IMG/VR virus record: IMGVR_UViG_3300045988_058602 | Coordinates: 90,765-154,764 of that record | Source: a virus | Strand: one strand, 5' to 3' | Length of the DNA stretch: 64,000 bases | Shown here: in pieces, positions 44,696 to 44,767 of the stretch | Numbering within the stretch: position 1 is the first letter of the stretch | Layout of the letters: the number at the start of each line of letters is the position of its first letter | Notes under the pieces: model-generated | The model's database searches: none | What the model saw: only the letters and a program-made list of their open reading frames with translations | What the model was told of the DNA's origin: nothing | Made by a program: the position numbers and the translations under genes

Positions 44696-44767
44696 TGCCC
44701 TATGGTGTAATGGTCAGCACAGATGACTCTAAATCATTTAGTCTGGGTTCGAATCCTAGTAGGGCAA
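44696..44767 (+). tRNA. amber-suppressor tRNA with anticodon CTA, derived from tRNA-Gln
   Basis: TGCCCTATGGTGTAATGGTCAGCACAGATGACTCTAAATCATTTAGTCTGGGTTCGAATCCTAGTAGGGCA has a perfect U1-A72 acceptor. The anticodon loop CTCTAAA gives anticodon CUA. The D-arm is identical to tRNA-Gln(TTG) at 30464-30535. Confidence 0.75.

What the first reader, a model, noticed from the sequence alone, without database searches (positions are those of the whole stretch)
44696..44767. Gln-derived amber suppressor tRNA(CUA) sits exactly at the early/late strand switch
A well-folded 72-nt tRNA has anticodon loop CTCTAAA, giving anticodon CUA. Its acceptor (U1-A72) and D-arm TATGGTGTAATGGT are almost identical to the window's own tRNA-Gln(UUG) at 30464-30535. 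This suggests it arose by anticodon change from tRNA-Gln and inserts Gln at UAG. It is the only plus-strand tRNA and lies immediately upstream of the plus-strand module, so it is a candidate timing switch for late-gene translation.
Basis: seen in the sequence. Interest (0 to 1): 0.85.

Follow-up and report, generated by a model that had tools for sequence, protein, structure and literature searches.

The report
Phage glutamine amber-suppressor tRNA, known type
This is a real phage tRNA that reads the stop codon UAG as glutamine so that a large gut crAss-like phage can translate its late structural genes; both the tRNA type and its position at the head of the recoded strand have already been published.

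Summary
ARAGORN and the Rfam tRNA model (66.3 bits, full cloverleaf, loop CUCUAAA) both call a tRNA with anticodon CUA at 44696-44767(+). It is the only plus-strand tRNA of about 28 in the window.

The window comes from a roughly 185-kb crAss-like gut phage, probably of the Zeta group, that uses genetic code 15. Plus-strand late genes from about 49.4 kb carry 130 in-frame TAGs, against 118 CAA/CAG. The 44 early minus-strand genes I tallied have none, by selection.

In four standard-code relatives, window TAGs align mostly with Gln (97 of 251 cells; His 0). The closest annotated tRNAs are all tRNA-Gln.

The tRNA holds the same position in 56 of 64 related loci scanned, and its stems change by compensatory substitutions.

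- It lies about 0.9 kb past the strand switch. A TAG-containing gene sits upstream of it and about 4.6 kb of TAG-free genes sit downstream.
- Its nearest non-suppressor relatives are Gln(CUG)-type tRNAs, not the window's own Gln(UUG) tRNA (71% identity).
- A second suppressor tRNA (UUA) lies on the other strand.

The timing-switch idea is plausible, untested and already published (Pfennig 2022, Borges 2021, Yutin 2021). Interest is low.

The parts
44696..44767 (+). Amber suppressor tRNA(CUA) of tRNA-Gln type. The anticodon is at 44729-44731. No CCA is encoded; the sequence after discriminator A73 is CGC.
   Evidence: ARAGORN. Rfam tRNA model 66.3 bits with full cloverleaf. In 8 distinct orthologue sequences all 21 stem pairs are kept and 10 of them show compensatory double changes.
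43832..44155 (.). Divergent intergenic region between the last minus-strand gene (start codon ends at 43831) and the first plus-strand gene. It holds conserved motifs: a G-run, CCCCAGGGGG twice, and an invariant TTTTTTAACTTTG at 44093-44105, which matches the Bacteroidota -7 promoter box TAnnTTTG. A sigma-70-like TTGCCA-18-TATAAT lies at 44049-44078.
   Evidence: Sequence. Alignment with 5 relatives. Promoter scan; the scan as a whole was not enriched over shuffles.
44156..44557 (+). First plus-strand gene (133 aa, unknown function) with 4 in-frame TAGs. It lies upstream of the tRNA.
   Evidence: Conserved in relatives, with TAG/CAA and TAG/GAG substitutions at codons 11 and 13. Called as a gene in related contigs. 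No Pfam or PHROG hit.
44571..44690 (+). Small ORF (39 aa) that ends 5 nt before the tRNA.
   Evidence: Sequence. An overlapping 46-aa version is called in related contigs.
44785..46031 (+). Five small plus-strand genes directly downstream of the tRNA, all TAG-free (13 CAA/CAG, 0 TAG).
   Evidence: Largely the same in relative L001, where one of the three small genes has a single TAG.
46076..47073 (-). Minus-strand island of three small genes with 1-2 in-frame TAGs each, embedded in the plus-strand region.
   Evidence: Genes called in related contigs. A larger TAG-rich island sits at this position in L001.
47188..49371 (+). TAG-free plus-strand genes: a PD-(D/E)XK exonuclease, two Cys-rich small proteins and a GroES-like protein (21 CAA/CAG, 0 TAG).
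49358..63374 (+). TAG-recoded late block: 130 in-frame TAG against 82 CAA and 36 CAG. It includes the large terminase (51393-53753, 16 TAG), the portal (53951-56125, 28 TAG) and a tail protein (61554-63374, 13 TAG).
41439..41509 (-). Second suppressor-family tRNA, anticodon UUA in this window. By wobble it would read UAA and UAG.
   Evidence: ARAGORN. Rfam 57.3 bits. Orthologues carry CUA (18), UUA (7), CUG = Gln (1) or damaged loops (3).
41536..41742 (-). RAGATH-14 RNA motif, 26 nt upstream of the minus-strand suppressor tRNA and in the same orientation.
   Evidence: Rfam 156.6 bits against a gathering score of 149.1. The same adjacency is seen in L003, L006 and L016.
30463..30535 (-).
24475..25266 (-). 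GIY-YIG homing-endonuclease-like gene with 6 in-frame TAGs, inside the otherwise TAG-free early block. The likely true start is about 25110. Two similar small nuclease-like genes with 3 TAGs each lie at 33184-33576 and 37295-37756.

Best explanation
The feature is a functional phage-encoded amber suppressor tRNA of glutamine identity, a supE-like tRNA-Gln body with anticodon CUA.

Shown:
- The gene is a canonical, evolutionarily constrained tRNA(CUA).
- The phage's late genes need UAG read as Gln.
- The gene's position is conserved among relatives.

Inferred mechanism:
1. It is transcribed as part of the plus-strand polycistronic unit that starts at the divergent intergenic region near 44.1 kb.
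2. It is cut out of that transcript by host RNase P and 3'-end processing enzymes, and given CCA by the host enzyme.
3. It is charged with Gln by the host glutaminylation system.
4. It then competes with release factor 1 at UAG. This lets ribosomes read through the roughly 150 in-frame UAG codons in the structural and packaging genes from about 49.4 kb onward, and in a few mobile nuclease-like genes.

Early minus-strand genes avoid internal TAG, so they are translated correctly with or without the suppressor ('dual-coded'). The few that end in TAG have a backup stop 1-9 codons later.

The gene's place at the 5' end of the recoded strand fits the published model that suppressor accumulation gates late-protein synthesis. 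Transcription, processing, charging and any timing role are inferred and were not tested here.
For: The tRNA is real:
- ARAGORN and Rfam both call it (66.3 bits, anticodon CUA).
- Eight distinct orthologue sequences keep all 21 stem pairs, 10 of them through changes on both sides.
- The sequence is identical across relatives whose terminase is only 87-98% identical.

Recoding is real:
- Coverage by ORFs of at least 100 aa in the 48-64 kb region rises from 0.27-0.36 to 0.89-1.0 when TAG is treated as sense.
- Nine late genes carry 2-28 in-frame TAGs each.
- TAG makes up 52% of Gln-type codons in late genes.

TAG means Gln:
- In four relatives with 0-1 TAG in the terminase, residues aligned to window TAGs are Q 97, E 36, K 25 and H 0, out of 251.
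- The BLOSUM62 sum is best for Q (514, against 333 for E).

The tRNA body is Gln-type:
- The nearest annotated tRNAs in 50,697 phage records are all tRNA-Gln. They include Wildcat Gln(CUG) at 83% and crAss cr7_1 tRNA(CUA), annotated tRNA-Gln, at 86%.
- Bacteroidales tRNA-Gln(UUG) shares U1-A72, A73 and the D-arm.

Position is conserved and tracks recoding:
- The tRNA lies 5-9 kb upstream of the terminase on the same strand in 52 of 60 IMG/VR relatives and in 4 of 4 assemblies.
- It is absent within 10 kb in relatives with little or no TAG.

Literature:
- TAG to Gln was confirmed by metaproteomics in crAss-like phages (PMC9523058).
- Sup-CTA is usually found at the 5' end of the recoded strand in 303 code-11/15 phages (bioRxiv 10.1101/2022.06.29.495998).
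Against: - There are no expression, processing or aminoacylation data.
- A second suppressor-family tRNA (UUA here) on the other strand could also read UAG, so this tRNA may not be the only decoder.
- A gene with 4 TAGs lies upstream of the tRNA in the same apparent unit, and about 4.6 kb of TAG-free genes separate the tRNA from the TAG-rich block. The tRNA does not mark the code boundary itself.
- Seven clearly recoded relatives (L024, L038, L041, L055, L065, L066, L072) show no tRNA(CUA) within the 10 kb upstream of the terminase.
- Some E. coli GlnRS identity elements, recalled from memory (G3-C70, G73, U38), are not present. The tRNA has C3-G70, A73 and A38.
- The D-arm motif also occurs in Patescibacteria tRNA-His, so body similarity alone does not fix the identity.
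Confidence: 0.85

Rival explanations
1. The plus-strand tRNA(CUA) is redundant. The main UAG decoder would be the minus-strand suppressor tRNA (UUA here, CUA in most relatives), which is encoded within the early tRNA-rich block. Suppression would then be available early, and the plus-strand copy would have no timing role.
For: A second well-scoring tRNA with anticodon UUA lies at 41439-41509(-) (57.3 bits). Orthologues exist in 29 relatives, and 18 of them carry CUA. U34 tRNAs read both A- and G-ending codons (wobble rule; E. coli ochre suppressors also suppress amber, from established knowledge). Early genes that end in TAG carry backup stops, as expected if suppression acts on them too.
Against: The minus-strand tRNA evolves fast and is often damaged or changed: a 6-nt loop in L012 and L013, an aberrant loop in L028, CUG in L069. 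It was not detected in the scanned flank of the L046 clade and several others, all of which are still TAG-recoded. The plus-strand tRNA is present in nearly all of them and is sequence-identical over wide divergence.
Confidence: 0.1
2. The tRNA inserts an amino acid other than Gln at UAG, for example Glu, Lys or His, or pyrrolysine as the ARAGORN label suggests.
For: ARAGORN labels it tRNA-Pyl. Glu is the second most frequent residue opposite TAG (36/251). The D-arm motif is most often found in Patescibacteria tRNA-His in the capped genome scan (98 of 116 classified hits).
Against: Gln is 39% of aligned residues against a Gln background of about 4% in the terminase set; His is 0 of 251. There is no G-1 and no C73, which HisRS needs (base -1 is C). 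The cloverleaf is fully canonical, with GG in the D-loop, a TTCGAAT T-loop and a 5-bp anticodon stem, unlike tRNA-Pyl (Pyl features recalled from memory). No Pyl-system genes appeared among the proteins scanned. Metaproteomics in crAss-like phages found Gln at TAG.
Confidence: 0.04
3. The suppressor is mainly an anti-host or inter-phage weapon. Read-through of host UAG stops would perturb host or defence proteins, and decoding of phage TAGs would be secondary. This was proposed for Zeta crAss-like phages that carry Sup-CTA without any recoding.
For: PMC12386605 lists many Zeta phages with a CTA suppressor but no amber suppression, and raises this hypothesis.
Against: In this phage the terminase, portal and tail genes cannot be made without UAG decoding: 130 in-frame TAGs in the late block. 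A decoding role is therefore obligatory. An extra anti-host effect is neither excluded nor supported by anything here.
Confidence: 0.05

Closest known systems
Sup-CTA tRNAs of code-15 (TAG to Gln) crAss-like and other gut phages (Ivanova 2014; Yutin 2021, PMC7886860; Borges 2021, bioRxiv 10.1101/2021.08.26.457843; Pfennig 2022, bioRxiv 10.1101/2022.06.29.495998; Peters 2022, PMC9523058)
   Same: A phage-encoded tRNA(CUA). In-frame TAGs are concentrated in late structural and packaging genes. The early block is TAG-free and 'dual-coded'. The suppressor gene lies at the 5' end of the strand carrying the recoded genes. An 86%-identical tRNA(CUA), annotated tRNA-Gln, sits in a comparable place in crAssphage cr7_1.
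   Different: The difference is in detail only. Here the tRNA is third in its transcription unit, behind a TAG-containing gene, and is separated from the TAG-rich block by about 4.6 kb of TAG-free genes. A second suppressor, variable between CUA, UUA and CUG, sits on the opposite strand. Pfennig reports two Sup-CTA genes in only 8 of 303 genomes.
Zeta crAss-like phages with amber suppression (PMC12386605, Table 1: for example ctoVY1, cthgQ11, ctHMy13)
   Same: Genomes of 176-189 kb, GC about 35%, 23-27 tRNAs, a CTA suppressor and amber suppression. Relatives of this window are contigs of 176-195 kb with inteins or insertions in the terminase.
   Different: Membership of the window in the Zeta group was not shown by phylogeny here. 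That paper lists no TTA suppressor and does not mention the tmRNA or RAGATH-14.
E. coli supE (glnV) amber suppressor and supB (glnU) ochre suppressor (established genetics, from memory)
   Same: A tRNA-Gln with the anticodon changed from CUG to CUA (one base) inserts Gln at UAG. A UUA derivative reads both UAA and UAG. The minus-strand family here shows exactly the series CUG, CUA, UUA among relatives.
   Different: The E. coli suppressors are weak laboratory or host mutations. Here the suppressor is a conserved, obligatory part of a viral decoding scheme, and TAG is the preferred Gln codon in late genes.

Membership tests
Canonical elongator tRNA (Rfam RF00005) | Full-length match to the covariance model above the gathering score, with cloverleaf pairing | tested here: met
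   66.3 bits against 29, model positions 1-71, no non-canonical pair flagged. ARAGORN agrees.
Canonical elongator tRNA (Rfam RF00005) | Structure maintained in evolution by compensatory changes | tested here: met
   In 8 distinct orthologue sequences, 168 of 168 pair cells are standard and 10 of 21 pairs change on both sides.
Gln-inserting amber suppressor tRNA (supE-like) | Anticodon CUA in a 7-nt loop | tested here: met
   Loop CUCUAAA, anticodon at 44729-44731.
Gln-inserting amber suppressor tRNA (supE-like) | tRNA-Gln-type body | tested here: met
   The top annotated matches in phage records are all tRNA-Gln: 82-86% for the crAss-like tRNAs annotated tRNA-Gln (cr7_1 checked: anticodon CUA) and 83% for Wildcat Gln(CUG). 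Bacteroidales tRNA-Gln(UUG) shares U1-A72, A73 and the D-arm. Caveat: the D-arm also occurs in Patescibacteria tRNA-His, and identity to the window's own tRNA-Gln is only 71%.
Gln-inserting amber suppressor tRNA (supE-like) | UAG positions correspond to Gln in homologues that use the standard code | tested here: met
   Q at 97 of 251 aligned cells, E 36, K 25, H 0. The best BLOSUM62 assignment is Q. The terminase-only analysis gives the same result.
Gln-inserting amber suppressor tRNA (supE-like) | Charged with glutamine in vivo | not testable with these tools
   This needs aminoacylation assays or proteomics. Metaproteomics in other crAss-like phages found Gln at TAG (PMC9523058).
Two-code (11/15) phage architecture with a code-change module | In-frame TAG concentrated in late structural and packaging genes, with early genes TAG-free | tested here: met
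   The late block has 130 TAGs in 4545 codons. The 44 early genes tallied have 0 internal TAG in 8592 codons, by selection; the independent support is that TAG-free ORFs of at least 100 aa already cover 0.75-1.00 of the first 20 kb. Exceptions are three nuclease-like genes and a small minus-strand island.
Two-code (11/15) phage architecture with a code-change module | Sup-CTA gene at the 5' end of the strand that carries the recoded genes | tested here: met
   The tRNA starts 540 nt after the first plus-strand start codon and 865 nt from the divergence point. The position is conserved in 56 of 64 related loci scanned. This is described as the usual arrangement by Pfennig et al..
Two-code (11/15) phage architecture with a code-change module | Accompanying release factor or aminoacyl-tRNA synthetase gene (optional component) | tested here: inconclusive
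   No release factor or synthetase was found among the roughly 28 window proteins scanned with Pfam or PHROGs. The window covers only about a third of the genome, and many small ORFs were not scanned.
Two-code (11/15) phage architecture with a code-change module | Suppressor expressed before or with late genes, so that it gates their translation | not testable with these tools
   This needs time-resolved tRNA-seq, RNA-seq or ribosome profiling.
tRNA-Pyl | Atypical Pyl-tRNA architecture (from memory) and an accompanying pyrrolysine system | tested here: not met
   The cloverleaf is fully canonical, with GG in the D-loop, a TTCGAAT T-loop and a 5-bp anticodon stem. No Pyl-related domain appeared among the scanned proteins. 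TAG aligns with Gln.
Zeta crAss-like phages | Crassvirales-related terminase; genome of 145-192 kb; many tRNAs; inteins and introns | tested here: inconclusive
   The terminase is 25-31% identical to crAss-like terminases. Relatives' contigs are 176-195 kb. There is an intein-bearing terminase (P0003) and there are insertions in L045 and L069. The window holds about 28 tRNAs. No phylogeny was run.

The most novel reading that the evidence does not exclude
This phage clade may run a two-suppressor relay.

- One component would be a fast-evolving Gln(CUG)-derived suppressor on the early strand. Its anticodon toggles between CUA, UUA and CUG among relatives, and it is always fused behind a RAGATH-14 RNA. 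It would give low or conditional early read-through.
- That read-through would allow translation of the TAG-containing first gene of the plus-strand unit.
- The other component would be the invariant plus-strand tRNA(CUA), which then drives full code change in a feed-forward way.

RAGATH-14 could be a processing or regulatory element for suppressor release.
Probability: 0.08. Interest if true: 0.55.

Novelty: already known. Interest (0 to 1): 0.22.

Why it matters
The case shows that gene calling on this window with the standard code fragments the whole late region, and it identifies the molecule that makes code 15 work in this phage. The biology is already established in print: TAG to Gln recoding of late genes in crAss-like phages, a phage Sup-CTA tRNA at the 5' end of the recoded strand, and the proposed gating of late or lytic protein synthesis. 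The practical consequence is to annotate the window with translation table 15. The only modestly new points are the fine anatomy around the tRNA and the variable second suppressor next to RAGATH-14.

Tried and rejected
- A megablast of 44-56 kb against 50,697 phage records found nothing. Relatives had to be reached through the terminase protein.
- Plain minimum-free-energy folding of the tRNA does not give the cloverleaf. This is not informative, so covariance models were used instead.
- Reading Q in database homologues at window TAG positions was rejected as circular. Those proteins had themselves been called with TAG = Q; the locus does not translate to the query under table 11, and 9 of 16 positions are TAG in L001. 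It was replaced by relatives with 0-1 TAG in the terminase.
- The sigma-70 promoter and terminator scan was not enriched over shuffles (29 against 34 expected), and the likely host is Bacteroidota, so it counts only as a weak lead.
- A scan of bacterial genomes for the D-arm motif, meant to find host tRNA-Gln, returned mostly Patescibacteria tRNA-His. This shows the D-arm alone is not diagnostic, and His was then excluded by the alignment test and the missing G-1 and C73.
- The ARAGORN label 'tRNA-Pyl' was rejected.
- TAA reassignment was considered because of the UUA tRNA. It was rejected for the late block, because all TAG-recoded ORFs end at TAA or TGA at homologue-matching lengths. The rise in ORF coverage when TAA is ignored is what an AT-rich, tightly packed genome would show anyway.
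- Pfam and PHROG scans of the tRNA's neighbours found no release factor, synthetase or tRNA enzyme.
- A literature search for RAGATH-14 returned nothing.

Full report
**1.

ARAGORN finds 27 tRNAs in the window. The only one on the plus strand is at 44696-44768, with anticodon cta. ARAGORN labels it 'tRNA-Pyl' only because of the anticodon.

The Rfam tRNA covariance model matches 44696-44767 at 66.3 bits (gathering score 29). The match is full length and no pair is flagged as non-canonical. The anticodon loop is CUCUAAA, so the anticodon CUA lies at 44729-44731.

U1-A72 is not a Gln hallmark in this genome, because several other phage tRNAs here also start U1-A72.

**2. Context: a TAG-recoded crAss-like phage**

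With the standard code, ORFs of at least 100 aa cover only 27-36% of the 48-64 kb region. With TAG read as sense they cover 89-100%.

Nine plus-strand genes from 49582 onward carry 2-28 in-frame TAGs each. They include the large terminase (51393-53753), the portal (53951-56125) and a tail protein.

The terminase is 25-31% identical to crAss-like terminases. It is 72-98% identical to hundreds of metagenomic proteins on contigs of 176-195 kb, some of which carry inteins or insertions. This fits the large 'Zeta' crAss-like group of Yutin et al. (PMC7886860). A 2025 survey of that group lists CTA suppressors and amber suppression (PMC12386605). I did not run a phylogeny, so the group assignment is probable, not shown.

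**3. TAG means Gln**

Database homologues show Q at the window's TAG positions. That evidence is circular, because those proteins were themselves translated with TAG = Q.

I therefore used four relatives whose terminase has 0-1 TAG. Across the eight late proteins that gave alignments, 251 residues align to window TAGs: Q 97, E 36, K 25, D 15 and H 0. The BLOSUM62-best assignment is Q (514, against 333 for E).

TAG is the majority Gln codon in late genes: 130 TAG against 82 CAA and 36 CAG. Metaproteomics has shown Gln at TAG in other crAss-like phages (PMC9523058).

**4. The tRNA is constrained and of Gln type**

The same tRNA sits 5-9 kb upstream of the terminase, on the same strand, in 52 of 60 IMG/VR relatives scanned and in 4 of 4 assembly loci. 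It is absent from the 10 kb upstream flank in relatives with little or no TAG.

Eight distinct orthologue sequences keep all 21 stem pairs, 10 of them through changes on both sides. The sequence is identical across relatives whose terminase is only 87-98% identical.

In annotated phage genomes the best matches are all tRNA-Gln:
- crAssphage cr7_1, 86% identity. Its anticodon is in fact CUA and RefSeq annotates it as tRNA-Gln.
- Mycobacteriophage Wildcat tRNA-Gln(CUG), 83% identity, with the same 5' acceptor strand and loop CUCUGAA.

Bacteroidales tRNA-Gln(UUG) shares U1-A72, A73 and the D-arm. Identity to the window's own tRNA-Gln(UUG) is only 71%, barely above tRNA-Thr at 69%.

The Gln-type reading is therefore supported. 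Descent from the window's own UUG gene is not. A Gln(CUG)-type ancestor with one G36A change, as in E. coli supE (from memory), is the simpler route. The lineage is shared with another crAss family.

A capped genome scan showed that the D-arm motif also occurs in Patescibacteria tRNA-His. His is excluded by the alignment test and by the lack of G-1 and C73.

**5. Anatomy around the tRNA**

- The last minus-strand gene starts at 43831.
- A 325-nt intergenic region follows. It is conserved among relatives even where the flanking genes diverge. It contains an invariant TTTTTTAACTTTG that matches the Bacteroidota -7 box (recalled from memory) and a sigma-70-like site.
- The first plus-strand gene (44156-44557) has 4 in-frame TAGs, which alternate with CAA or GAG in relatives. 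A 39-aa ORF then ends 5 nt before the tRNA.
- No terminator-like site lies near the tRNA and the next gene starts at 44785. The tRNA is therefore most likely cut out of a polycistronic transcript (inference).
- Downstream, genes at 44785-46031 and 47188-49371 have 0 TAG among 34 Gln codons, where about half would be expected at the late-block rate.
- A small minus-strand island (46076-47073) has 1-2 TAGs per gene.
- The TAG-rich block begins at about 49.36 kb.

The same layout is seen in a 78%-identity relative. The tRNA therefore lies near the strand switch, but it is not at the boundary of TAG use.

**6. Complications for a simple switch**

A second suppressor-family tRNA lies on the minus strand at 41439-41509, with anticodon UUA. 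By wobble it would read both UAA and UAG.

Among 29 relatives its orthologues carry CUA (18), UUA (7), CUG, which is a normal Gln anticodon (1), or damaged loops (3). It was not detected in the scanned flank of whole recoded clades. It looks like a dispensable, fast-evolving partner, while the plus-strand tRNA is the constant one.

Inside the early block, three nuclease-like genes are TAG-rich; one is GIY-YIG-like. Borges et al. noted the same for an intron homing endonuclease in a TGA-recoded Agate phage.

Apparent early genes that end in TAG have a backup stop 1-9 codons later. That matches the 'dual-coded, soft switch' picture of Pfennig et al..

**7. Comparison with what is known**

- Yutin et al. 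reported suppressor tRNAs and late-gene recoding in crAss-like phages.
- Borges et al. proposed that recoding times late and lytic gene expression.
- Pfennig et al. state that in 303 code-11/15 phages the Sup-CTA gene is usually at the 5' end of the strand carrying the recoded genes. They infer that it is expressed before those genes, and they note genomes with two Sup-CTA genes.

**8. Verdict**

- The feature is real.
- The core function is a Gln-inserting amber suppressor required for late-gene translation. I hold this with high confidence (about 0.85).
- The timing-switch role is plausible but untested.
- Novelty is low. The remaining loose ends are side observations: the RAGATH-14-linked variable suppressor, the TAG-containing gene ahead of the tRNA, and the tmRNA.

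Noticed in passing
window 41439-41509 (-): A second suppressor-family tRNA, anticodon UUA (ochre type), although TAA is the phage's main stop codon. Orthologues in relatives carry CUA (18), UUA (7), CUG = Gln (1, in L069) or damaged anticodon loops (3). This is a natural CUG/CUA/UUA series.
   Followed up: partly
window 41536-41742 (-); also L003 1451-1623, L006 1697-1890, L016 1719-1890: A RAGATH-14 RNA motif (156.6 bits in the window) lies 26-30 nt upstream of the minus-strand suppressor tRNA, in the same orientation, in the window and in three relatives. 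This suggests one conserved RNA unit. No paper in the library mentions RAGATH-14. Relative L046, in which no minus-strand suppressor was detected in the scanned flank, has a RAGATH-1 hammerhead nearby instead.
   Followed up: partly
window 20874-21438 (-): A phage-encoded tmRNA-like gene (Rfam 69.3 bits against a gathering score of 47) that ARAGORN misses. It has a 157-nt insertion, and its apparent tag reading frame is AEIAPVRMAA followed by UAA.
   Followed up: partly
window 24475-25266, 33184-33576, 37295-37756 (all -): A GIY-YIG homing-endonuclease-like gene (6 in-frame TAGs) and two small nuclease-like paralogues (3 TAGs each). They sit next to tRNA genes inside the otherwise TAG-free early block.
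   Followed up: partly
window 43385-43831, 18293-18718, 19175-19849, 25723-26067 (all -): Apparent early genes that end in TAG have a second in-frame stop 1-9 codons downstream, so suppression would add only a short tail.
   Followed up: partly
L029 103-192, L034 2218-2307, L035 303-391, L070 1195-1282: In one related clade the orthologous tRNA(CUA) carries a 16-nt extra arm after the anticodon stem. The arm's 7-nt loop, CTCTGAA (CTCTGAC in L070), copies a Gln(CUG) anticodon loop, which may be a remnant of an anticodon-arm duplication.
   Followed up: no
window 23332-23404 (-): A tRNA hit found only by Rfam (39.5 bits), with an imperfect acceptor stem and an apparent UGC (Ala) anticodon. ARAGORN does not call it. 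Several other window tRNAs are unusually long, for example Cys at 86 nt, Met at 80 nt and Phe at 78 nt.
   Followed up: no
window 43907-44025 and 44093-44105: The divergent intergenic region is more conserved among relatives than the flanking genes. It contains CCCCAGGGGG twice, a G-run followed by GTGGACCG, and an invariant TTTTTTAACTTTG (Bacteroidota-type -7 box).
   Followed up: partly
window 5271-6833 (-), 9227-10243 (-), 31085-32923 (-): Auxiliary genes in the early block: a nicotinamide/nicotinate phosphoribosyltransferase, an OmpA-like outer-membrane protein, and a long SPFH/Band-7 protein with an Ala/Glu/Lys-rich repetitive tail.
   Followed up: no
L206 (crAssphage cr7_1, NC_055895.1) 3005-3076: RefSeq annotates as 'tRNA-Gln' a tRNA whose anticodon is CTA. 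It is 86% identical to the window's suppressor and also lies after a strand switch, just before a dUTPase gene and a tail gene.
   Followed up: yes
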